Shown here in pieces: positions 4,190 to 62,343 of a stretch of DNA of 64,000 nucleotides. The DNA is from Vicinamibacterales bacterium (GTDB lineage: Bacteria > Acidobacteriota > Vicinamibacteria > Vicinamibacterales > 2-12-FULL-66-21): positions 151-64,150 of the forward strand of contig DASTVZ010000224.1 of NCBI GenBank assembly GCA_035758845.1, given 5' to 3'. The notes below the pieces were generated by a model, which was given only the letters and a program-made list of their open reading frames with translations, did no database searches and was not told the origin of the DNA. A program made the position numbers and the translations under genes. Each line of letters begins with the position of its first letter. Position 1 is the first letter of the stretch.

Positions 4190-4267
4190 ATTGTTGATTG
4201 CTGATTTCTGATGGCTGATTGGTTTCTCGCTCTTCAATCAGCGATCAGCAATCGAAAATCAGCAATT
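4190..4267. repeat. inverted heptad array: about 4 GCTGATT-type units, a 13-nt loop, then about 4 AATCAGC-type units
   Basis: Read directly: attgttgattgctgatttctgatggctgattgg / tttctcgctcttc / aatcagcgatcagcaatcgaaaatcagcaatt. It fills the spacer between the patatin-like stop (4274) and the PLP-enzyme start (4174). Confidence 0.85.
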
Positions 4268-6238: not shown

Positions 6239-6271
6239 ATTGCTGAATGCTGATTGCTGAAGGCGGATTGC
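6239..6271. repeat. direct heptad array, TGCTGAW/GCGGATT units (about 4.5 copies)
   Basis: attgctgaatgctgattgctgaaggcggattgc lies between the divergent greA and trmH-like starts. Confidence 0.7.
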
Positions 6272-14510: not shown

Positions 14511-14540
14511 GAAATGCTGAATGCTGAATGCTGAATGAAA
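14511..14540. repeat. tandem GCTGAAT heptads (3 perfect copies)
   Basis: gaaatgctgaatgctgaatgctgaatgaaa starts 1 nt after the DUF1080 stop. Confidence 0.85.
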
Positions 14541-34185: not shown

Positions 34186-35976
34186 TCAGATTCGCTGAAA
34201 GTTCTTCTCAATCTCCCGTCGCGTGATCCGCAATACGACAGGACGTCCGTGCGGACAGACGCTTGAATACGCCGTGCGACGCAGCTCCTCAAGGATGTAA
34301 CGCATCTTCTCCATCGTCAGCGGATAATTCGCCTTGACGGCAGCATGACACGCCATGGTTGCTGCGATCCGGCGCAGCGCTTCCTCGACGCGAGATCCGC
34401 GGTCGAGCCCCTCGAGATCGCTGGCCAACGCGCGGATGGCGGCCTCGCATTCACCCGGATCGAGCGCGGCGGGAAGCGCGGAGAGACGAACGCTGTCGCC
34501 GCCGAACTCCTCGATCTCGACGCCGAACTTCTCGAGCGTCGCCGCATGTGGAAGGAGCGCCTGCCGCTCAGCGGGTGAGAGCTCGATGAGAACAGGCGTC
34601 AACAGGCGCTGGCTTTCGAGCTGGCCGGACGTCAACCTCTCCATCACCTGTTCGAACAGCACGCGTTCGTGCGCCACATGTTGATCGACAATTGCAATCC
34701 CTTCATCGTCAATCGCGATGATGAACGTGTCGCGAAACTGGCCCAGGGGGATCATTGGGCGGAGGTCACCCGGTTCTACTGGGTTCTGCGTGGTCCTACC
34801 GGGTTCAGCAGGGTTCGACAGGGCGCTGCCGACAGCGTTCTCAGTTGCTGGCTCCATAAGATTGCGCCATGGCCCGAGCGGTTCGGGCGCCCACCGGTTT
34901 CCAACCGTCGCGCCGGCAAGGACACCAGGAATCGCCATCGGACGCGGCTCCAGCTGGCGCGGCGAGAACGGCGTGAATTGCAACTCAGGGGCGCGGCCTT
35001 GCCCGAGCGCTTCCGCGAGCGCGCGGCGAAGCACTTCGTGCACGAGTGACTGCTCGAGAAACCGCACTTCCGCCTTGGTCGGGTGAACGTTGACGTCGAC
35101 GCGATCGGCGGGCATGCGGATGAAGAGATGCACTTCGGGACTGCGTTCTTTGATCGTCGCCACGCTATACGCTTCCGAAATCGCGTGCGCGATCGTGCGG
35201 TCCTTGACGATGCGGCGGTTGACGAATACGTTTTGCGCGCCGCGCACCGGCCCCTGATCGCCGAGCGCCGCGACGTACCCGTGAATCTGCAGCCCGGCGG
35301 CCTCTTTGCGGACTTCGATCAAGTCGAGGCGCTCGCCAAACAGCTGATAGAAGCGGTCGCCCAGACCGTTGGCTGGCGGGCACTCGAGCAGCTTTCGTCC
35401 GCCGCTGGTGAGCGAGAAGCCAACCTCGGGATACCCGAGGGCCATCTGCGTCACGAGGCGGGAGATCTGCGCGGATTCGGCGCTATCCGACTTCAGGAAC
35501 TTGCGCCGCGCCGGCAGGTTGTAGAACAGATCCGCGACCTCGATCGAGGTGCCTTCGGGGACGCCGACTTCGCGCTGCGAGGCAACCGTGCCGCCATTGA
35601 CGCGTATCTCGGTGCCTGACGCGCTGCCGCGCGCGCGTGTGCGCAACTGGAAATGCGACACCGACGCGATACTCGGCAGGGCTTCGCCTCTGAATCCCAA
35701 CGTGAGAATGGCGCCGAGATCTTCCGGCGTCGCAATTTTGCTCGTCGCGTGACGCTCGATCGCGAGCCGCGCGTCCTCCGGATCCATCCCCTCTCCATCG
35801 TCCTCGACGCGAAGCAGCTTCTTGCCGCCGAGCTCGATGGTGATCACGATGCGCGTCGCCTGCGCATCGAGCGAGTTCTCGATCAGTTCCTTGACCACCG
35901 AAGCCGGACGCTCGACGACTTCGCCGGCGGCGATTTGATTGGCGAGGCGGAGGGGAAGACGATGAATGCGAGGCAT
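34186..35976 (-). CDS. mutL: DNA mismatch repair protein MutL
   Basis: IAAGEVVERPASVVKELIENSLDA ATPase motif and a C-terminal endonuclease/dimerisation region. Confidence 0.95.
   Translation of the reverse strand: MPRIHRLPLRLANQIAAGEVVERPASVVKELIENSLDAQATRIVITIELGGKKLLRVEDDGEGMDPEDARLAIERHATSKIATPEDLGAILTLGFRGEALPSIASVSHFQLRTRARGSASGTEIRVNGGTVASQREVGVPEGTSIEVADLFYNLPARRKFLKSDSAESAQISRLVTQMALGYPEVGFSLTSGGRKLLECPPANGLGDRFYQLFGERLDLIEVRKEAAGLQIHGYVAALGDQGPVRGAQNVFVNRRIVKDRTIAHAISEAYSVATIKERSPEVHLFIRMPADRVDVNVHPTKAEVRFLEQSLVHEVLRRALAEALGQGRAPELQFTPFSPRQLEPRPMAIPGVLAGATVGNRWAPEPLGPWRNLMEPATENAVGSALSNPAEPGRTTQNPVEPGDLRPMIPLGQFRDTFIIAIDDEGIAIVDQHVAHERVLFEQVMERLTSGQLESQRLLTPVLIELSPAERQALLPHAATLEKFGVEIEEFGGDSVRLSALPAALDPGECEAAIRALASDLEGLDRGSRVEEALRRIAATMACHAAVKANYPLTMEKMRYILEELRRTAYSSVCPHGRPVVLRITRREIEKNFQRI
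34771..34830. repeat. five to six GGTTCTNNNN decamer units inside the mutL CDS
   Basis: cggttctact gggttctgcg tggtcctacc gggttcagca gggttcgaca gggcgctgcc. Same unit, phase and orientation as the left arm at 14559. Confidence 0.8.
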
Positions 35977-35978
35977 CT

Positions 35979-36183
35979 CGATTGCCGATTGTTGATTGGT
36001 GAATGCCGATTTGTCGATTGCTGATTGTCAATTGGTCATTGACGATCGCTGACTGGCGATTGGTGATTGGCGATTGGTGATTGCCGACGGGTGTTCGAGT
36101 ATGACCAGGAGGTAAACACAATCGTCACTCCACAATCGTCAATCCAAACTCCGCAATCTACAATCCGCAATCCGCAATCGTCA
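35979..36183. repeat. large inverted heptad array: about 16 GATTGNN units, a 28-nt loop, then about 9.5 CAATCNN units
   Basis: Left arm 35979-36088, loop 36089-36116, right arm 36117-36183. It occupies the whole corA-mutL spacer and touches both the corA stop and the mutL ATG. Confidence 0.9.
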
Positions 36184-37146
36184 TATCCAGCCTTTCTTCC
36201 GAAAGAACCCGAGCATCGCCGCCGACAGGGCGAGCATGATGCCGCAGACCCACCAGAACTGCGCGTGTTCGCCGCCGGGCAAATGCGGCAACGGCACGTT
36301 CATGCCGTACATGCCGGTCAGGACGGTCAGCGGCATGAACAGCGTTGCGATGATCGTGAGCACCTTCATCACCTGATTGAGCTGGTTCGATACCGCAGAC
36401 AGGTGGGCGTCGAGGATACTCGTGATGCGATCCTGAAAAAACATCGCCTCGTCCGACAGCCTCACCAGGTGGTCATGCACATCGCGAAAACCGTACGCGA
36501 GCTGTTCGGTGATCAACGGGAATTCGCGGCGCGCCAGCCGGCCGACGACGTCGCGTTGCGGCAGCACGGTTTGGCGCAACGACGAAATGTCTTTCTTGAA
36601 ATTCAGAATCCGGCGTGCCAGCTGCGTGTTCGGGTGCTCGAACACTTCCTTTTCGAGTTTGTCGAGCTTCTCAGACAACTTGTCGACTTCGGGCCGGTAG
36701 TTGTCCACCATCGTGTCGACGATCCGGTAGAGCAACATGCCGGGCCCTTCGCCAAGCATGCGGGAGTCACGGCTGCACACCACGCCCACTTTGCCGATTG
36801 ACCGTGAGACACCGGGATGCACGGTCACCAGGAATTGTGAACCGAGAAAAAAATCGACGTCCTTGGTGGTGAAGCGATGTTCGGACGCATGAAAATCGAT
36901 TCCGTGCAGAATTACGTACAGGTAGTCGCCGTAGGACTCGATTTTCGGGTGATGCAGCTCGCTGAGAGCGTCTTCAATCGCAAGCTGATGAAAATGAAAG
37001 GTGTCGCTGAGGACTTTTGTTTCGTCAGGAGTCGGTCGATCGAGATCGACCCAGACACATATGCCGCTGCCAGGCTTGATCCAGGCGGGGTCCACGCGAT
37101 CGACGAGCTGAGTGGACCCGCCCTCGTGCTTGTAGATCCTGATCAA
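36181..37146 (-). CDS. corA: magnesium/cobalt transporter CorA
   Basis: YGMNV (GMN) motif plus two C-terminal TM helices. TTG 37146 overlaps the ppdK stop (TTGA). Confidence 0.85.
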
Positions 37147-42184: not shown

Positions 42185-42264
42185 TCCAAATCAACAATCC
42201 ACAATCACAATCGCCCAATCGACATTCAAAAAAATCAGCAATCAGCAATCCGCAATCAACAATT

Positions 42265-42267
<3 letters not shown>
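42185..42267. repeat. single-orientation heptad array, AATCNNC units (about 11 copies) with a central A7 run
   Basis: tccaaatcaacaatccacaatcacaatcgcccaatcgacattcaaaaaaatcagcaatcagcaatccgcaatcaacaatttca fills the glyQ-glyS spacer. Confidence 0.85.
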
Positions 42268-43139
<872 letters not shown>

Positions 43140-52247: not shown

Positions 52248-52771
52248 GATCGCTCGATCAATCCCGCACGAAGGCCGCCGCGGCGGCGGAGTCGTGTTTC
52301 GACGCGGCGCATGCGCCCGGCGTCCTCCTGATTGTGGTGATCGTACCCGAGCAGGTGCAGCAAGCCATGAAGCGCAAGCACGCGCAACTCGGCCTGGTAC
52401 GAGTGGCCGGCGTCCCTCGCCTGCTTCCTGGCAGTGCCGGTGGCAATGACGATATCGCCAAGGAAACCTGTCGGGATCCGTTGTCCGGGATCCGGGATCC
52501 GGGATCCGGGATCAACCGGAAACGATAAGACGTCGGTCGGCCGATTTTTCCGGCGGTACTGTGAATTGAGTGTCTGGCTGTGGGCATCGGTGACGAGCGC
52601 GATCGCTACCTCGCCGCGTGCGACAGATGGCGCGATCGAGGCGAGCCACTGCGAGAGCCCGCCGTCGCGGACCGATCGTCCGCGACCGTCAGTCACGCTG
52701 ACATGCAAGCGTCGACCGCGCCGGTTCTCGGCGCCACCCGGCTGGCGCCGGACTTTACTGTCGGGATCCAC
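52244..52771 (-). CDS. ybeY: rRNA maturation endoribonuclease YbeY
   Basis: [11 protein letters not shown] zinc motif and DVLSFP. GTG 52771 is the first start after the phoH region and overlaps phoH by 17 nt. Confidence 0.85.
52471..52512. repeat. CCGGGAT heptads inside the ybeY CDS: 4 perfect tandem copies (52485-52512) plus 2 degenerate units
   Basis: tcgggatccgttgtccgggatccgggatccgggatccgggat. Contains four GGATCC cores. 42 nt equals 14 codons. Confidence 0.9.
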
Positions 52772-55763: not shown

Positions 55764-57065
55764 TTACTGTGATGCCTTCACCAGGTCAGCGACTGCTGCC
55801 CTCGGGACCGATTGCTGAACACCGGTTTCAAGATTCTTGATCGTCACTTCTCCGCGGCCGATTTCGTCGCCGCCGAGTATCGCCGCGAAGCGAATCTTTC
55901 TGGTCGCCGCGTACTTCATCTGCTTCCCTAGCTTGTCGGCCTCGGGATACATCTCGACGCGAATCCCGCTGGCCCGCAATTCCGCGGCCAGCTTCAACGC
56001 CTCAGGAATCGTCGACTGGTCGAACAGCGTCAGCAAAACATCGGCCGACGCCTGCTCCACCTGCAGCGGAAACATCTTGCGCTCGGTCATGACAACCAGG
56101 ATGCGTTCGAGCCCGAGCGAGAATCCGCATGCCGGCACATCTTCGCCGAGAAACATGCCGATCAATCCGTCGTACCGCCCTCCGCCACCGAGGCTGCCGG
56201 CCAGGTCCGGGACGGTGACTTCCATGATGGCGCCGGTGTAATACGAAAGTCCGCGGGCAAGAAATGGTGCCGGCTTCACATGAGGCGCGGCGGCAGTCCC
56301 CTGGCAAAGGTCGATGATCTCGCGCAGGTTTTGCACAGCAGCGGACCCCTGTTCATCCGAAAACGAACCGAACTCGCCCGAGTGTGCGTTATCGAGCACG
56401 GCCTTCGCCGCGTCGGGCGGGACGTGTCGCGAAACCATCTCCTTGAGCACGCCATCGACGCCAATCTTGTCCAGCTTGTCGAGCGCGACAAGTGCCGCGG
56501 TGTGGAGCGCGGGTTCAACCCCCGCCCGGTTCAGTGTGGCGGTGAGCAACTGGCGGTGGTTCAACTGGATCGCGAAGTCATCGAACCCAAGACGCGTGAG
56601 CACATCGCTGACCGCCGCAAGCATCTCGGTCTCGACCACGGGCGACCGGGATCCAATCGCATCGACGTCGCATTGAAAAAACTCGCGGAACCGTCCCCGG
56701 GCCGGACGATCCGCGCGCCACACTGGCTGAATCTGATATCGCTTGAAAAACTTCGGCAACTGGCCGCGGTACTCGGCCACGACGCGAGCCAAGGGCACGG
56801 TGAGGTCGTAGCGCAACGCCAGATCGGTTTCACCCGACGATTCATGCTCGCCGCGGCGCAGCACCTTGAAGATCAGCTTGTTGCCCTCTTCGCCGTACTT
56901 CCCCATCAACGTGTCGATGTTCTCGAGCGATGGAGTTTCGAGCGGCTCGAATCCGTAGCGCTGGTAGACGTCGGATACGATTCCGATGACGTAGGCGCGA
57001 CGGCGGACGTCTTCAGGCAGGAAATCGCGCATGCCGCGCGCCGGGCGGGTCTGCTGCGATGGCAT
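55764..57065 (-). CDS. hisS: histidine--tRNA ligase
   Basis: GMRDFLPED, FRYERPQ-like WRADRPARGRFREFFQCD, and GGGRYDGL. Confidence 0.95.
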   Translation of the reverse strand: MPSQQTRPARGMRDFLPEDVRRRAYVIGIVSDVYQRYGFEPLETPSLENIDTLMGKYGEEGNKLIFKVLRRGEHESSGETDLALRYDLTVPLARVVAEYRGQLPKFFKRYQIQPVWRADRPARGRFREFFQCDVDAIGSRSPVVETEMLAAVSDVLTRLGFDDFAIQLNHRQLLTATLNRAGVEPALHTAALVALDKLDKIGVDGVLKEMVSRHVPPDAAKAVLDNAHSGEFGSFSDEQGSAAVQNLREIIDLCQGTAAAPHVKPAPFLARGLSYYTGAIMEVTVPDLAGSLGGGGRYDGLIGMFLGEDVPACGFSLGLERILVVMTERKMFPLQVEQASADVLLTLFDQSTIPEALKLAAELRASGIRVEMYPEADKLGKQMKYAATRKIRFAAILGGDEIGRGEVTIKNLETGVQQSVPRAAVADLVKASQ

Positions 57066-57595
57066 CAGCGCACGGATCCCGCGCCGGCGGCATTCATATA
57101 ATCGAGTCGATATCCGACATAACGCTCGGCGTAGGTGCGAATGCTCGCAACGTCCTCGTCGGTCAACTCGCGCCGCACCTTCCCCGGCGACCCCATCACC
57201 AGCGACCGCGGCGGCACACGAGTCCCCTCCGCCAGCAACGCCCCGGCCGCGACGATGGAGTCCGCTCCAACGACAACGCCGTTCAAAAGAATCGCGCCCA
57301 TCCCGACCAGGATCCGATCCTGCAGCGTGCAGCCGTGCACGATTGCCCCGTGTCCAATCGTCACATCGTCGCCAATTGTGGTGGGATGCGTTCCGATCAT
57401 GACGTGCACGATCGTGCCGTCCTGGACGTTCGAGCGCGCGCCGATGCGAATCCAGTTCACGTCGCCGCGCACGACGGCATTCATCCAGATGCTGCTGGCC
57501 TCACCAATCTCGACATCACCGATCACTTGTGCGCTGCTGTCGACGTACGCCGTCGCGTGCACCCTCGGGGTGATGCCTTTGTAGGGGCGAAGCAT
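57065..57595 (-). CDS. gamma carbonic anhydrase family / hexapeptide-repeat protein
   Basis: Left-handed beta-helix hexapeptide repeats with a YrdA/PaaY-like layout. Confidence 0.85.
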   Translation of the reverse strand: MLRPYKGITPRVHATAYVDSSAQVIGDVEIGEASSIWMNAVVRGDVNWIRIGARSNVQDGTIVHVMIGTHPTTIGDDVTIGHGAIVHGCTLQDRILVGMGAILLNGVVVGADSIVAAGALLAEGTRVPPRSLVMGSPGKVRRELTDEDVASIRTYAERYVGYRLDYMNAAGAGSVR

Positions 57596-57610
57596 CTAAC
57601 AATGATACTT

Positions 57611-57660
57611 CGCGATTCGCGCGTTAGCGATTCGCGCGTTAGCGATTCGCGCGAATCGCG
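57611..57660. repeat. 15-nt unit cgattcgcgcgttag x2 running into an 18-bp perfect palindrome gcgattcgcgcgaatcgc
   Basis: Units at 57613-57627 and 57628-57642. Palindrome at 57642-57659. Confidence 0.85.
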
Positions 57661-57736: not shown

Positions 57737-59386
57737 TCACTTCTTCACAGTCGGATACGCAATCCCCAACTGCTCGAGGTATGTCTTGTACTTCGCGGGA
57801 TCGTAGTAGAACTTTTTCATCTGCTCGCGATACTTATCCATCGTCGGCTTGTTCAGTTCGATGGCTGGACGGTCGTCCGGGCGGATAAGCGGTTCGTATT
57901 TCGTATCCTTCGTCTGCACGTTGCGGAAGTAGTCCCAGGCAGCCTGCACGACGGCTGGTTTCATCAGCAGGTCGATCATCGTCATCGCCTGCACTTTCGC
58001 ACCAGCAGTCACACCCTTGTGCGCGATCGGTGTCGCCATCGCGATGGCGTTCGCCCAGTTGTGCCCGGGCAGCCCTGGGATGTTGGCCGGATATCGCAGC
58101 GTAATCGTCGGGACATTCCACGAGACATCGCCGATGTCATCCGACCCTCCGCCGGTGTTTGTGGTTGCAGGGCCCTGAAGCGCAGCCGCGAGCTTGATCG
58201 TCAAGCCCGTTTCTCGCGATCCGAGTTCTTTCTGGAGCGCCTTCGCCAGCGTCTGATCGTCTTCAGTCCACTGCGGCAGTCCGACGCGCGTAATGTTCGC
58301 GAATGCCGCTTCCGCCACGGCCTTGTTGAAGTGCTGGGGCCAGGCCGACCCGAGCACGCGCGTGGGTAGAAGCTCGGTGCCGGTCATCAGCGCGGCGCCC
58401 TTGGCGATCGAATCGCCAATGGCCCACATCTCCTTGATCTTCTGATACGTCGTCTGCCGGAAGTAGTACCACACCGATGCCGTTCGCGGGACGACGTTGG
58501 GTTGATCGCCGCCGTCGGTGATCACGTAATGCGAACGCTGCTCGAGCGGCAAATGCTCGCGGCGGAAGTTCCAGCCGATGTCCATCAGCTCTACGGCATC
58601 CAACGCGCTGCGGCCGCGCCAGGGCGCTCCGGCGGCGTGCGCGGTCTCTCCGCGGAATGTGTAGAGCACTGAGACGAGACCTGTGCCCGATCCTCTATCT
58701 CCCCACGAGACGCCCATCTCGTCACCGACGTGGGTGAAGAGCGCGACGTCGACGTCCTTGAACAGCCCGGCGCGTACGAAGTACGCCTTGGTGCCGACGA
58801 GCTCCTCAGCGGTGCCGGACCAGATGCGCAGCGTTCCGGGAAGCTTTTCGCGCTCCATGATCTTCTTCACGGCCAGGGCCGCAGTGACGTTCAGTGGCTC
58901 GCCGGAGTTGTGTCCTTCACCGTGGCCAGGCGCACCTTCGATGATCGGATCGTGGTACGCGACGCCTGGCTTCTGCGACGCCTGCGGAATCCCGTCGATA
59001 TCAGAACCCAGAGCCAGAACCGGCTTGCCGGATCCCCAGGTCGCCATGAATGCCGTGGGAATGCCGGCCACGCCTTCCTCGACCGTGAAACCGTTCTTCT
59101 TGAGAATGTCGATCAGATAGCGGTTCGTCTCGAACTCCTGGAAGCCGAGTTCGCCAAAGCTGAAGACGGAATCGACCATCTGCTGCGTGAACACTTTCAT
59201 CGAGTCGATGTCCGCCACCGCTTCGCTCTTGAGCTTGGCGACGCGGGGTTCGTCAGCTGGCGGCGCCGGTGGACCCTGTGGCGCTGGCGACTGCGGCTGA
59301 TCGCCACGTCCCTGCGCCAGAACGGACGCGCCGGCGAGAGCGAAGATGACCGCAATCAATCTCACATATCTAGTCGTACCGCTCAC
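57737..59386 (-). CDS. secreted M20-family amidohydrolase (AbgB-like)
   Basis: GSDIDGIPQ ... GHGEGHNSG metal ligands. Start set to GTG 59386, preceded by AAGGAG at 5-nt spacing, giving MSGTTRYVRLIAVIFALAGASVLA. Confidence 0.8.
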   Translation of the reverse strand: MSGTTRYVRLIAVIFALAGASVLAQGRGDQPQSPAPQGPPAPPADEPRVAKLKSEAVADIDSMKVFTQQMVDSVFSFGELGFQEFETNRYLIDILKKNGFTVEEGVAGIPTAFMATWGSGKPVLALGSDIDGIPQASQKPGVAYHDPIIEGAPGHGEGHNSGEPLNVTAALAVKKIMEREKLPGTLRIWSGTAEELVGTKAYFVRAGLFKDVDVALFTHVGDEMGVSWGDRGSGTGLVSVLYTFRGETAHAAGAPWRGRSALDAVELMDIGWNFRREHLPLEQRSHYVITDGGDQPNVVPRTASVWYYFRQTTYQKIKEMWAIGDSIAKGAALMTGTELLPTRVLGSAWPQHFNKAVAEAAFANITRVGLPQWTEDDQTLAKALQKELGSRETGLTIKLAAALQGPATTNTGGGSDDIGDVSWNVPTITLRYPANIPGLPGHNWANAIAMATPIAHKGVTAGAKVQAMTMIDLLMKPAVVQAAWDYFRNVQTKDTKYEPLIRPDDRPAIELNKPTMDKYREQMKKFYYDPAKYKTYLEQLGIAYPTVKK

Positions 59387-59450
59387 GGTGACTCCTTTGG
59401 CTGCCGATGTGGCTGGAAGGATAGCAAACGATGTCATACTTAGGCGATCC

Positions 59451-60473
59451 ATGCCGCTTCTCGATCGTTTTAGCCGTCCGTTGCGGAGCCTCCGCATTTC
59501 GGTGACCGATCGCTGTAACCTGCGATGTCAGTACTGCATGCCGGAGCCGGACTATCTCTGGCTGCCCCGCGAAAGCCTGCTGACATTCGAAGAAACTGCC
59601 GCGATCGTTGACGCGTTCACGCCGCTTGGCGTCGATCGGGTGCGGATCACTGGCGGCGAACCGCTTCTCCGCCGCGATCTGCCGGTGCTTATCGAGTCAT
59701 TGGCGGCGAAGCCGGCAATCGCTGATCTTGCGATGACCACCAACGGGGTTCTGCTCGCGGCGAATGCATCGCGACTGCGCACCGCCGGACTGCACCGAGT
59801 GACCGTCAGTCTTGACACGCTCGACCGCGAGCGCTTCCGCGCGCTGACGCGGATGGATGATTTGCACGAGGTGCTCGACGGCATCGCTGCTGCCGCGGCC
59901 GCGGGATTTACGTCGCTCAAGCTCGACACCGTGGTGATCCGCGGCGTCAATGACGATGAACTGGTGGCGCTCGTCGAATATGCGAAGAGTGTGAATTCCG
60001 AACTCCGATTCATCGAGTACATGGATGTTGGCGGGGCAACGCGCTGGACACCTTCTGCGGTTGTGTCGAGGCGCGAGATCCTCGATCGATTGCGCGCACA
60101 CTACGGGGGTGTCATGCCGATTGCGGAACAGTCGTCAGCCCCCGCGGATCGATTCCTGCTGCCTGACGGGACGACGTTCGGAATCATTTCGTCGACGACC
60201 GAGCCGTTCTGTGCATCGTGCGATCGTAGCCGCCTCACCGCGGACGGTGTCTGGCTTCTTTGCCTCTATGCAGCCACCGGCACGGACCTTCGTCGCCCGC
60301 TACGCGCAGGGGCTAGCCGCGAGGATCTTCAGCGGTTGATCGAAGCTGTATGGTCGGTTCGTGCCGACCGCGGTGCCGAAGAGCGTCTCGGGATGGATCG
60401 CGAAACGACGCTTATCCCCGTCCGGACGCTTAAGAAAGACGCTCACCTCGAAATGCATACCCGCGGCGGCTGA
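59451..60473 (+). CDS. moaA: GTP 3',8-cyclase MoaA (radical SAM)
   Basis: Start ATG 59451 (MPLLDRFSRP). CNLRCQYC radical-SAM cluster and C-terminal CASCDRSRLTADG. Confidence 0.9.
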   Translation: MPLLDRFSRPLRSLRISVTDRCNLRCQYCMPEPDYLWLPRESLLTFEETAAIVDAFTPLGVDRVRITGGEPLLRRDLPVLIESLAAKPAIADLAMTTNGVLLAANASRLRTAGLHRVTVSLDTLDRERFRALTRMDDLHEVLDGIAAAAAAGFTSLKLDTVVIRGVNDDELVALVEYAKSVNSELRFIEYMDVGGATRWTPSAVVSRREILDRLRAHYGGVMPIAEQSSAPADRFLLPDGTTFGIISSTTEPFCASCDRSRLTADGVWLLCLYAATGTDLRRPLRAGASREDLQRLIEAVWSVRADRGAEERLGMDRETTLIPVRTLKKDAHLEMHTRGG

Positions 60474-60609
60474 TTGCGGATTGCGGAGTGGCGATTGCCG
60501 ATTTCTTGATTGGCGATTGCGGATTGAGATTGCCCATCTCAATCGACAATCTCAATCGACAATCGACAATCTGAAAATCCGCAATCTACAGTCCGAAATC
60601 GGCAATCAG
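60471..60609. repeat. inverted heptad array: about 8.5 GATTGCN units, a 5-nt loop, then about 10.5 CAATCNN units
   Basis: The array starts with the moaA TGA (tgattgcggattgcgg...). Its centre is a perfect 9-bp stem, gattgagat-tgccc-atctcaatc (60522-60544). It ends 2 nt before the sigma ORF. Confidence 0.9.
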
Positions 60610-60611
60610 CG

Positions 60612-61190
60612 GTGTCACAAACCCCCGCCCTGGAACGTTGTATAAGAGTGAGCGCATCAGGGCTGGTGGCGACGTATCCTTCGACCTACACGGCTCCAGA
60701 GGCGGTTGAGGCTCTCACCCCGACAGTCTCATCGCTGTTCGACCTGCACGCGAGTGGTTTGTATCGGCTGGCGCTTGCCATGCTGCACGATCCCGATGCG
60801 GCGCAGGATGTCGTTCAAGACACCTTCGCGCGTCTGATCGAACATCTTCGTCAGGGTGGACCGCTCACGAATGCCCGTGGATGGCTGTACACCGTCGCTG
60901 CACATGCCTGTCGGGATCGGCAACGAGGAAGAGGTCGGTGGTTGCCGTGGCTGATGGAGCGCGACACGCGCACCGCGGCTGAGACTCCCGATCGCTTCGA
61001 CGACAAGCAAGCCATGTTGCACGCCATTCGGGCGCTTTCGGCGCGCGACCGGATGCTCATCGCTCTTCGCGCGCAGGGGTTGTCCTATCACGAGATAGGC
61101 GACGCATCAGGCATCCGGTACACATCGGTCGGCCGGCTTTTGACGCGCGCGCTCAACCGTCTCGAGAAAGAGTTGCATCGCCGGAGCTGA
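60612..61190 (+). CDS. ECF-type RNA polymerase sigma factor
   Basis: Region 2 AQDVVQDTFARL ... WLYTVAAHACRD. Region 4 LSYHEIGDASGIRYTSVGRLLTRA. The start may be GTG 60648 or 60666 rather than 60612. Confidence 0.8.
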   Translation: MSQTPALERCIRVSASGLVATYPSTYTAPEAVEALTPTVSSLFDLHASGLYRLALAMLHDPDAAQDVVQDTFARLIEHLRQGGPLTNARGWLYTVAAHACRDRQRGRGRWLPWLMERDTRTAAETPDRFDDKQAMLHAIRALSARDRMLIALRAQGLSYHEIGDASGIRYTSVGRLLTRALNRLEKELHRRS

Positions 61191-61218: not shown

Positions 61219-62343
61219 ATGTCACGTTGTTTAACTGATGACCAACTCCAGGCCATCGCGGATCGCGAGGCCGCTTCGGAGGATGTGTCCCACGTCGAGC
61301 AGTGCCAGCGATGCGCGGAACGCCTTGCTGCGCGGGTCGGGCTGATGGCTCGCATTGAGGACACGACGGGGAGCGACGAACTTCCAGGCGCCGCCCGGAG
61401 TGCGATGCTTGCGCACCTTGCCCGTACGACAGCCGCTGGCGCAACCACACTACGGCCTGTCCGTCGTCTACGACGATGGGCATGGGCGATCCCGCTCGCA
61501 GCGGCGGCGGCGATCGCGCTCCTGGTCTATGTCATTCCCGGCATCGATCGGCAAACAACAGTGTCCGCGGCCGAAATCCTCGGACGCTCGCGATCCGCTC
61601 TTACCGCTCCGACTTCAGGTATCGAGGTTCTGACCTACGACCTCGAGCTGTCAGGCGTACTCGCGGATTTGATCCCCGAGGAACAATCAGGACGATTCAC
61701 GGTCCAGGAACTTGTGGATCACGATCACGACGGGCGGTATCGCATTGTCAAGCTGACCAGCAGCGGTCAGATTGTTGGTGGCGCGGCGGACGATCCGCTG
61801 CGCGGCACTCGCACGCGATACATGAGAGCCAACGGGCGTGGATATTTGTTGAGATTCGACGGAGCCGCACCCACCGCACTGTCGATTCCCGCGCTCAAGC
61901 GCACCGCTCTTCAAACCTTCATCGGTTTCATGCAAGCGAGCAGTACCCAGACGCTGCGGCAGGTTCAACGCGGCGCCGACGCGTGTTACCAAATCGACAT
62001 TCCGGGCGGTGCAATGGTCGGCGGTTCGCTGATTGCGCTCGACAGCGCGCGTGCCGTTGTCGCCGTCGCCGACTCGCGGCTCGTCGAATTCTCGGCGAGC
62101 GGTCGGATCGCGGACAAGCCGTTCATGATTGAATTCGCACTTCTCACCCAGGACATTCGCCCCGGTGATTCAGCCGAAGCGGCCGACTTCGATATCGCGG
62201 CCCAACCAGGCGACGTCGTCCTAGAGGGGGACGCCTCACAGAATCCTGTTTGGGATGTCGTGACGCGGGCGCTTCGTGCGATCCCGCCGGACACGGCCGG
62301 AGAACCGAAGCGCTCGGTCACCACGGACCATTCAAGGCACTGA
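61219..62343 (+). CDS. anti-sigma factor (zf-HC2-like N-terminus, one TM helix, large periplasmic domain)
   Basis: HVEQCQRCAERL motif and TM helix WAWAIPLAAAAAIALLVYVIPGI. Lies immediately downstream of the ECF sigma gene. Confidence 0.65.
   Translation: MSRCLTDDQLQAIADREAASEDVSHVEQCQRCAERLAARVGLMARIEDTTGSDELPGAARSAMLAHLARTTAAGATTLRPVRRLRRWAWAIPLAAAAAIALLVYVIPGIDRQTTVSAAEILGRSRSALTAPTSGIEVLTYDLELSGVLADLIPEEQSGRFTVQELVDHDHDGRYRIVKLTSSGQIVGGAADDPLRGTRTRYMRANGRGYLLRFDGAAPTALSIPALKRTALQTFIGFMQASSTQTLRQVQRGADACYQIDIPGGAMVGGSLIALDSARAVVAVADSRLVEFSASGRIADKPFMIEFALLTQDIRPGDSAEAADFDIAAQPGDVVLEGDASQNPVWDVVTRALRAIPPDTAGEPKRSVTTDHSRH

What the first reader, a model, noticed from the sequence alone, without database searches (positions are those of the whole stretch)
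60471..60609. The moaA stop codon is the first unit of a 139-nt inverted GATTGCN array that reaches the next gene
The array begins tgattgcggattgcgg, where TGA is the moaA stop. About 8.5 units run to a perfect 9-bp stem with a 5-nt loop (gattgagat tgccc atctcaatc, 60522-60544). About 10.5 reverse-complement units then continue to 60609, 2 nt before the longest ECF sigma ORF. A GGAAC motif (60632-60636) follows the array, so the sigma gene's real start may be GTG 60648 or 60666. The element may separate moaA transcription from the ECF module.
Basis: seen in the sequence. Interest (0 to 1): 0.6.

Follow-up and report, generated by a model that had tools for sequence, protein, structure and literature searches.

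The report
Gene-less heptamer-repeat hairpin after moaA
The gap between moaA and a sigma-factor gene is filled by a long hairpin made of two mirror-image runs of the 7-base word GATTGNN. It is one of about 48 such hairpins in this soil acidobacterium. In two sister species the same two arms at the same site enclose a small four-helix-bundle gene, so this copy looks like an emptied cassette rather than a switch built for this locus.

Summary
The moaA stop TGA (60471-73) overlaps the first GATTG word. About 9 GATTGNN units, a 9-bp stem with a 5-nt loop, and about 10 reverse-complement units run to 60610. The fold is -77 to -81 kcal/mol (z -8 to -9).

It is not locus-specific. The genome holds 48 GATTG-then-CAATC hairpins and none in the reverse order. 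None lies inside a gene and most abut a stop codon. Across all units there are 161 inverted period-7 pairs.

In congeners G006 and G014, orthologous arms at this same spacer enclose a TIGR02436/PF05635 four-helix-bundle gene. Four other congeners carry CGAAGAT-type arms instead. Across the genus, 23 of 25 such genes lie between complementary arrays, against 38 of 4640 ordinary genes.

The conserved promoter is TGTCACA(60613-19)-N16-CGTT(60636-39). This rules out the 60612 start and favours GTG 60648.

There is no U-tract, no Rfam match, no target-site duplication and no RAYT link.

Verdict: a solo-arm member of a known kind of element. Its effect is probably that of a generic 3'-end hairpin.

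The parts
59451..60473 (+). moaA (GTP 3',8-cyclase; Radical_SAM + Mob_synth_C). The stop TGA at 60471-73 is shared with the first GATTG word.
   Evidence: ORF, translation, Pfam. Homologues align from residue ~36. The Logan gene call is 340 aa, so the start is probably ATG 59451 rather than 59346.
60472..60530 (.). 5' arm: about 8.5 GATTGNN heptads, G>C on the + strand
   Evidence: It aligns with the left arms of G006 and G014, sharing irregular landmarks (gatttNttgattg, gattgagattgc).
60531..60535 (.). 5-nt loop (tgccc), at the position where congeners G006 and G014 carry about 480-620 nt including a four-helix-bundle gene
60536..60610 (.). 3' arm: about 10 NNCAATC heptads, the reverse complement of the 5' arm
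   Evidence: CAATCTGAAAATCCGCAATCT is shared exactly with the right arm of G014.
60613..60619 (+). TGTCACA, the inferred -35 of an ECF-type promoter. GTCACA is invariant in 11 congeners.
   Evidence: Alignments; motif TGTCACA-n16-CGTC in PMC3426412
60632..60636 (+). It lies in the promoter spacer and is not conserved.
60636..60646 (+). CGTTGTATAAG, an invariant block. CGTT is the inferred -10, 16 nt after TGTCACA.
60648..61190 (+). ECF sigma factor gene, probable start GTG 60648 (leaderless or nearly so). GTG 60666 is the alternative.
   Evidence: Sigma70_r2/r4_2 and TIGR02937. The 60648 codon is ATG in G002, G004 and G012, and is always in frame (15, 18, 21 or 24 nt) with the conserved GTGGCG at 60666. 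One-nt indels upstream in G019 and G012 rule out coding from 60612.
61219..62343 (+). Putative anti-sigma factor (weak match, below the curated cut-off)
   Evidence: NF052375, E 1.4e-7, 31.8 bits against a 100-bit cut-off. No Pfam hit.

Best explanation
The element is a solo-arm (gene-less) copy of a heptamer-armed cassette. Two inverted GATTGNN arrays fill the whole dispensable spacer from the moaA stop codon to the -35 of the sigma gene's own ECF-type promoter.

Shown:
- It belongs to a genome-wide family of 48 GATTG-then-CAATC hairpins.
- These sit between genes, typically starting 0-30 nt after a stop codon, with the G-rich arm always first.
- Its arms are orthologous to arms that enclose a TIGR02436/PF05635 four-helix-bundle gene at the same site in two congeners.

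Inferred:
- This copy arose when the interior (gene plus about 500 nt) was lost in one step, for example by replication bypassing the base of the large stem-loop. That left the arms abutting around a 5-nt loop.
- Its present effect is generic rather than tailored. On any moaA read-through transcript it forms a stem of about 60 bp with mismatches. Such a stem can protect the moaA 3' end or be cut by a double-strand RNase such as RNase III, as in rRNA intervening sequences.
- The sigma gene is transcribed on its own from TGTCACA-N16-CGTT and probably starts at GTG 60648.
For: Anatomy and stability.

Family:
- There are 130 GATTG elements, of which 48 are hairpins. All are GATTG-first, and no CAATC-first pair occurs within 670 nt.
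- No hairpin lies in a predicted gene. Contexts are 15 convergent, 26 tandem and 5 divergent, against a background of 440/1542/549. The hairpin usually sits 0-30 nt from the upstream gene's stop.
- One-armed arrays carry GATTG on the mRNA strand next to the stop (26 vs 12 between co-directional genes).
- Across all units there are 1242 period-7 TRF rows, only 280 of them inside genes. There are 161 inverted pairs, 149 with G>C in the left arm.

Orthology:
- The moaA-sigma spacers of G006 and G014 begin with the same arm at the stop codon and end with the same arm before GTCACA, sharing irregularities with G000.
- Between the arms lies an ORF matching TIGR02436 (49 and 63 bits, cut-off 24) and PF05635.
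- On the tree of the flanks, G000 groups with G006 and G018 (95/98) and G014 lies outside. The filled form is therefore at least as old as the G000 lineage.

Other support:
- Gap sizes between paired arms in G000 are bimodal: 48 gaps of 86 nt or less, and one of 569 nt that holds a decayed four-helix-bundle gene.
- In the genus, 23 of 25 four-helix-bundle loci lie between complementary arrays, against 38 of 4640 G000 genes.
- The promoter is conserved next to variable spacers.
Against: - No RNA or read data could be obtained, so no function is shown.
- The direction of change (loss or gain of the gene) is not proven. Spacer types do not follow the flank tree: G018, inside the G000 clade, has the CGAAGAT type that G007, G011 and G015 share. 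Allele replacement or old polymorphism therefore occurs, and G000 could carry an old empty allele.
- Solo GATTG hairpins outnumber filled ones 48 to 1 in this genome, so most may arise or spread without the gene.
- Own-arm complementarity barely exceeds that of arms from different loci (0.48 vs 0.44; the own arm is never the best partner). The stem is therefore not finely maintained.
- The stem has a mismatch about every heptad, and the longest perfect helix is 9-13 bp, so RNase III cleavage is a guess.
- Only 2 of 11 congeners and 4 of 23 more distant moaA loci have a significantly stable fold in the first 160 nt after the stop. A hairpin here is not required.
Confidence: 0.6

Rival explanations
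1. The arrays arise locally by slippage and template switching right after stop codons. They are kept because any strong hairpin there acts as a U-tract-independent terminator or 3'-end stabiliser. Under this reading the four-helix-bundle gene is a later invader of hairpin loops.
For: Nearly every congener has some short-period array starting 0-50 nt after the moaA stop, but with different units: GATTGNN, CGAAGAT, GGTCTCN, GGGATTG, CGGGACT, GGGTTCN. L001 and L007 have other heptad or octad hairpins there. Arrays are G-rich on the sense strand next to stops. Solo hairpins far outnumber filled ones.
Against: The arms of G000, G006 and G014 are orthologous, and the flank tree places the filled form on both sides of G000. 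There is no U-tract. Arm pairing is not specifically maintained. Many moaA loci have no stable fold after the stop.
Confidence: 0.22
2. One reading: a locus-specific insulator or regulator that separates moaA transcription from the ECF sigma / anti-sigma module.
For: The array spans exactly from the stop codon to 2-3 nt before the -35 element. The hairpin is very stable.
Against: The same promoter and gene order persist with unrelated spacers of 249-2019 nt in 10 congeners. The element is one of 48 near-identical hairpins at unrelated genes. No terminator signature was found.
Confidence: 0.08
3. A REP/REPIN-type or MITE-type non-autonomous transposon, mobilised by a RAYT or another transposase.
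For: It is intergenic, palindromic and multi-copy. The genome has three PF01797 (Y1 transposase) genes.
Against: None of the three Y1 genes is flanked by GATTG or other heptad arrays; one is flanked by its own 34-35-nt repeats. There is no target-site duplication at this element or at the G006 and G014 copies. Copies differ in length and unit order rather than being copies of one master.
Confidence: 0.05

Closest known systems
Intergenic heptameric repeats of Xanthomonas (GGGAATC) and Nostoc (GGGGAYT), Rehm et al. 2015, PMC4692102
   Same: Both have 7-nt units, a genome-wide spread and over-representation outside genes. Both lie within about 50 bp of the stop codon or overlap it, and are scarce between divergent genes. 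In Xanthomonas 70-75 loci have two arrays in convergent orientation that can form stem-loops, and the number of units varies between species. All of these features are seen here.
   Different: The unit GATTGNN has no G-tract, so the G-quadruplex explanation and the preference for four units do not apply. The host is an acidobacterium (Vicinamibacterales). Here the arms can be tied to a four-helix-bundle gene at the orthologous site, a link that paper does not make.
ORF-bearing 23S rRNA intervening sequences (Coxiella burnetii IVS with S23p; Warrier et al. 2016, PMC4990558)
   Same: In both, a long stem from terminal inverted repeats encloses a PF05635/S23p four-helix-bundle ORF. Tandem heptamers lie at the stem, their number varies between strains, and the ORF decays or is deleted. 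RNase III cuts the stem of the Coxiella element. The filled forms in G006 and G014 have the same layout.
   Different: This element lies between protein genes, not in an rRNA helix. The window's copy has no ORF at all. The arms are about 60-70 nt of degenerate heptads rather than a 28-bp near-perfect stem. RNase III processing is untested here.
ECF41-type promoter TGTCACA-n16-CGTC (Wecke et al. 2012, PMC3426412)
   Same: The conserved TGTCACA, a 16-nt spacer and CGTT lie directly upstream of the sigma gene, as expected for an autoregulated ECF promoter.
   Different: The sigma factor here is short (about 180 aa), lacks the fused C-terminal domain that defines ECF41, and is followed by a putative anti-sigma gene. 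It is not filed as ECF41.

Membership tests
Intergenic heptameric SSR arrays (Rehm 2015 class) | Tandem 7-nt units, many loci per genome, enriched outside genes and next to stop codons | tested here: met
   TRF; 962 of 1242 period-7 rows lie outside predicted genes; positions relative to stops
Intergenic heptameric SSR arrays (Rehm 2015 class) | Paired arrays in convergent orientation that form inverted repeats | tested here: met
   48 GATTG pairs, all in the same polarity; 161 pairs across all units
Intergenic heptameric SSR arrays (Rehm 2015 class) | G-tracts able to form G-quadruplexes, with a preference for four units | tested here: not met
   The unit GATTGNN has no GGG run, and each arm has about 9-10 units
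Four-helix-bundle (PF05635/TIGR02436) cassette with inverted heptamer arms / ORF-bearing IVS | Inverted repeat arms that form a long stem | tested here: met
Four-helix-bundle (PF05635/TIGR02436) cassette with inverted heptamer arms / ORF-bearing IVS | PF05635/TIGR02436 ORF between the arms | tested here: not met
   The window copy has a 5-nt loop. The feature is met at the orthologous site in G006 and G014 and at G000 C42, which holds a decayed gene. The window copy is therefore filed as a solo-arm derivative, not a full member.
Four-helix-bundle (PF05635/TIGR02436) cassette with inverted heptamer arms / ORF-bearing IVS | Excision or cleavage of the stem by RNase III | not testable with these tools
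Cleavage is known only for the rRNA elements.
Rho-independent terminator | GC-rich stem-loop followed directly by a U-tract | tested here: not met
   No terminator-like sites in 60300-60800. The 3' flank reads CAGCGGTGTCACAAACC.
REP/REPIN with RAYT | Repeats flank and are mobilised by a Y1 (PF01797) transposase gene | tested here: not met
   Three PF01797 genes are present. None is flanked by GATTG or other heptad arrays.
MITE | Terminal inverted repeats plus a target-site duplication | tested here: not met
   No direct repeat flanks the element in G000, G006 or G014 beyond a chance GCGG
Rfam RNA families | Match at the gathering score | tested here: not met
   Only sub-threshold miRNA-hairpin look-alikes: 23 bits against a 53-bit cut-off
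ECF41 sigma/promoter system | TGTCACA-n16-CGTC promoter | tested here: met
   TGTCACA 60613-19, N16, CGTT 60636-39, conserved in 11 genomes (motif)
ECF41 sigma/promoter system | Sigma factor with a fused C-terminal regulatory domain and no anti-sigma factor | tested here: not met
   The ORF is at most 192 aa and contains only regions 2 and 4. A putative anti-sigma gene follows.

The most novel reading that the evidence does not exclude
GATTG hairpins would be the non-autonomous, gene-less form of a cassette made of a four-helix-bundle gene plus inverted heptad arms. The cassette would settle in the first bases after stop codons and be exchanged as whole spacer alleles between species: at this one site the genus shows GATTG+gene, GATTG solo and CGAAGAT forms that do not follow the flank tree. 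The four-helix-bundle pentamer would be the factor that reads the heptads. This would tie together the unexplained heptamer repeats of several phyla, the rRNA intervening sequences and the PF05635 family.
Probability: 0.25. Interest if true: 0.8.

Novelty: new variant of a known kind. Interest (0 to 1): 0.45.

Why it matters

Its value is as a clean comparison at a single orthologous site. The same arms occur with a four-helix-bundle gene in G006 and G014 and without it in this genome. An unrelated armed element sits in the same slot in four other congeners, all between an invariant stop codon and an invariant promoter.

That comparison helps to decide whether the heptamer repeats described in Xanthomonas, cyanobacteria and now Acidobacteriota are remnants or relatives of the cassettes known from 23S rRNA intervening sequences.

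The work also gives a better annotation of the sigma gene. The promoter is TGTCACA-N16-CGTT and the start is at 60648, probably leaderless.

Tried and rejected
- My first two home-made gene callers mis-called this region. The third is still imperfect and misses the sigma and anti-sigma genes, so context counts are approximate.
- phmmer and jackhmmer with the G014 four-helix-bundle protein found none of the 30 best genus members. The family is too divergent, so I relied on the TIGR02436 profile hits and their coordinates.
- The full-length MoaA (375 aa) is not on record as an exact protein. The anti-sigma protein gave two Logan contigs, and only one spans the array.
- Arm covariation: own arms are only slightly more complementary than arms from different loci. 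This rejects a finely maintained stem.
- Hairpin required after moaA: rejected. Most relatives show no significant fold in the first 160 nt after the stop.
- Also rejected:
  - Rfam families
  - sigma-70 promoter and intrinsic terminator signatures
  - RAYT/REPIN
  - MITE target-site duplication
  - GGAAC as the -35 element
  - the 60612 start codon
- The library search for papers on the four-helix-bundle family listed none whose title or abstract linked it to heptamer arms. The nearest papers are PMC4692102 and PMC4990558.

Full report
**1. Observation**

The sequence is as described.
- The moaA ORF ends with TGA at 60471-73, and GATTG begins at 60472.
- TRF finds a period-7 array of 9.0 copies at 60472-60534 (GATTGCC) and one of 9.7 copies at 60540-60607 (CAATCGA).
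- The apex is a perfect 9-bp stem (60522-30 / 60536-44) with the loop tgccc.
- The two 69-nt arms (60469-60537 / 60542-60610) are 80% complementary.
- As RNA the region folds to -77.5 kcal/mol on the + strand (z -7.8) and -81.3 on the - strand (z -9.3). No shuffle does as well.
- A separately assembled Logan contig from run SRR26663189, with 3 mismatches in 4148 nt, has the identical array.

**2. It is one of a family**

The window's genome (270 contigs, 6.08 Mb, 61.8% GC; moaA relatives are Vicinamibacterales / Acidobacteriota MAGs) is full of period-7 arrays.
- Period 7 is by far the commonest TRF period, with 1242 rows. Only 280 of these lie inside predicted genes, although genes cover about 89% of the DNA.
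- Clusters of at least 3 GATTG/CAATC words number 187, against 0-61 for the other 29 permutations of those letters.
- The clusters form 130 elements, and 48 of them are hairpins. Every hairpin has the GATTG arm first. No CAATC-first pair occurs within 670 nt.
- No hairpin lies in a predicted gene. They are enriched between convergent genes (15) and depleted between divergent genes (5), with 26 between co-directional genes. The background for spacers is 440 convergent, 549 divergent and 1542 co-directional.
- A hairpin usually begins 0-30 nt after the stop of the upstream gene.
- One-armed arrays follow the same rule: GATTG reads on the mRNA strand next to the stop (26 vs 12 between co-directional genes). 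In convergent pairs each array hugs the stop of 'its' gene.
- Across all units there are 161 inverted period-7 pairs, and 149 have G>C in the left arm.
- The moaA stop being the first unit is thus the extreme case of a general habit. MoaA's conserved C-terminus ...HTRGG is untouched in all relatives.

**3. The same site in relatives**

Ten congeners keep moaA followed by the same sigma gene. The spacer runs from 249 to 2019 nt and comes in distinct types.
- G006 and G014 start with the same GATTG arm at the stop codon and end with the same CAATC arm just before the promoter. Their arms lie 480-620 nt apart and enclose an opposite-strand ORF.
- That ORF matches TIGR02436 'four helix bundle protein' (49 and 63 bits, cut-off 24) and PF05635 '23S rRNA intervening sequence protein'.
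- The three left arms and three right arms align with shared irregular landmarks, for example gatttNttgattg and CAATCTGAAAATCCGCAATCT. They are therefore orthologous, and G000 simply lacks the interior.
- G018, G007, G015 and G011 carry a different element in the same slot, with CGAAGAT/ATCTTCG arms.
- G004 and G012 have GGTCTCN-type arms around an OsmC-like gene. G002 has one CAATCCC arm. G019 has a 2-kb insert.
- Further congeners without the sigma gene downstream still have arrays of other units after the moaA stop: G009, G010, G016, G020 and G023.
- So does the more distant L001, which has CTTCCAG/CTGGTAG arms.
- On a tree of the flanking coding DNA, G000 groups with G006 and G018 (support 95/98) and G014 lies outside.
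- The filled GATTG form is therefore found on both sides of G000. This favours loss of the interior in G000.
- The CGAAGAT type also crosses that clade boundary, so spacer alleles are replaced or are old polymorphisms. The direction of change is not proven.

**4. Link to four-helix-bundle genes**

- G000 has 4-5 TIGR02436 genes, each flanked by inverted short-period arrays of a different unit.
- One of them (contig C42) has GATTG/CAATC arms 569 nt apart around a decayed gene.
- Gaps between paired GATTG arms are bimodal: 48 are 86 nt or less and one is 569 nt. This fits one-step loss, or independent spread of solo hairpins, better than gradual decay.
- In 26 genomes of the genus, 25 have such genes.
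- Of 25 loci with full flanks, 23 lie between complementary arrays within 350 nt. The other two look inverted by eye. For all G000 genes the figure is 38 of 4640.
- Among ordinary genes that have arrays on both sides, inverted (38) and direct (27) unit matches are about equally common. The bracket is therefore specific to this gene family.
- Earlier notes of this scan pointed me to this link. I tested it here independently at the orthologous site and across the genus.

**5. What it is not**

- It is not a canonical intrinsic terminator. There is no U-tract and no terminator-like site was found.
- It matches no Rfam family.
- It is not a RAYT-associated REP. The three PF01797 genes have no heptad arrays beside them.
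- It is not a MITE, because there is no target-site duplication.
- It is not a quadruplex-forming repeat, because the unit has no G-tract.
- Its stem is not finely maintained. Own arms are only slightly more complementary than arms taken from different loci (0.48 vs 0.44), and the own arm is never the best partner, although it ranks above the median in 40 of 48 cases.
- A stable fold directly after moaA is not conserved. Only 2 of 11 congeners and 4 of 23 distant loci reach z < -3.

**6. The sigma gene**

- An alignment of 11 congeners shows two invariant blocks, GTCACA (60614-19) and CGTTGTAT(A/T)AG (60636-46). They are 16 nt apart when read as TGTCACA-N16-CGTT.
- That is the architecture of ECF promoters. 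It matches the -35 motif published for group ECF41 (PMC3426412). The sigma here lacks the ECF41 C-terminal domain and has a putative anti-sigma neighbour.
- One-nt indels in that spacer (G019, G012) show that the stretch from 60612 is not coding.
- GTG 60648 is replaced by ATG in G002, G004 and G012. It is always in frame (15, 18, 21 or 24 nt) with the conserved GTGGCG at 60666.
- The likely start is therefore 60648, only 8 nt after the -10. That implies a leaderless or near-leaderless mRNA. This is an inference, as no transcription start data exist.

**7. Mechanism**

Shown:
- membership of the GATTG hairpin family;
- the polarity and stop-codon rules;
- orthology of the arms to a four-helix-bundle cassette;
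- a self-contained promoter downstream.

Inferred:
- The interior was lost in one step, for example by replication bypass across the paired arms.
- The remaining hairpin acts only generically, as a 3'-end protective stem or a double-strand RNase target on moaA read-through RNA. This is by analogy with the RNase III-processed Coxiella IVS, which has the same gene family, a terminal stem and variable heptamers (PMC4990558).
- The hairpin has no role tailored to the ECF module.

**8. Comparison and novelty**

- The nearest described kind is the intergenic heptameric repeats of Xanthomonas and Nostoc. These include convergent pairs, stop-codon proximity and scarcity between divergent genes (PMC4692102).
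- This copy differs in three ways: the unit has no G-tract, the phylum is different, and there is a demonstrable tie to a four-helix-bundle cassette at the orthologous site.
- I rate it a new variant of a known kind, of moderate interest. The main worth is the filled / solo / other-armed comparison at one fixed site.

**9. Limits**

- Gene contexts rest on a rough home-made gene caller.
- The flank tree is short (720 nt) and unresolved inside the G000/G006/G018 clade.

Noticed in passing
window 35979-36189: A second, larger GATTG-then-CAATC heptad hairpin (about 200 nt) fills the gap beside the 34186-35976 (-) gene. It belongs to the same family as the finding.
   Followed up: partly
window 4190-4266, 6239-6271, 14513-14537, 42185-42314, 52472-52513: Further period-7 arrays are present (ATTGCTG/CAATCAG pair, ATTGCTG, AATGCTG, a one-armed AATCNNC array between two co-directional genes, CGGGATC x6). 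All lie at gene boundaries.
   Followed up: partly
window 57609-57660: A perfect 15-nt tandem repeat, GCGATTCGCGCGTTA x2.8 (100% matches), lies between the genes at 57065-57595 and 57737-59497. It is not a heptad array.
   Followed up: no
L094, L095, L097, L098 (G018, G011, G015, G007 moaA-sigma spacers): An unrelated armed element occupies the same slot. It has an outer stem, then CGAAGAT / ATCTTCG heptad arms around 150-300 nt with inner hairpins and no four-helix-bundle match. Its distribution cuts across the flank tree.
   Followed up: partly
L101, L102 (G012, G004 moaA-sigma spacers): An OsmC-like gene (PF02566) on the opposite strand sits between GGTCTCN arrays and GAGTCCC/GGATCCC/TAATCCC arrays. 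This is a non-four-helix-bundle gene between roughly complementary arrays.
   Followed up: partly
L100 (G019): A 2-kb insertion with at least one long ORF lies between moaA and the conserved sigma promoter, without heptad arms.
   Followed up: no
G000 C190:375-500 and 2179-2364: A PF01797 (Y1 transposase, RAYT-like) gene is flanked by 34-35-nt tandem repeats that contain GTAG. This is probably a separate REP/RAYT system in the same genome.
   Followed up: no
L104, L108, L110, L113, L120 (four-helix-bundle loci in congeners): Many four-helix-bundle cassettes in the genus use AGCTTCC / GGAAGCT arms with the C-rich arm first. This is the opposite GC-skew polarity to the G-first rule that holds for 149 of 161 inverted pairs in G000.
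   Followed up: no
L133:2011-2472: In the Logan contig the sigma gene was called only as an 82-aa fragment plus an opposite-strand 64-aa ORF, although the DNA is 99.93% identical to the window. Automatic callers evidently struggle with this gene's start.
   Followed up: no
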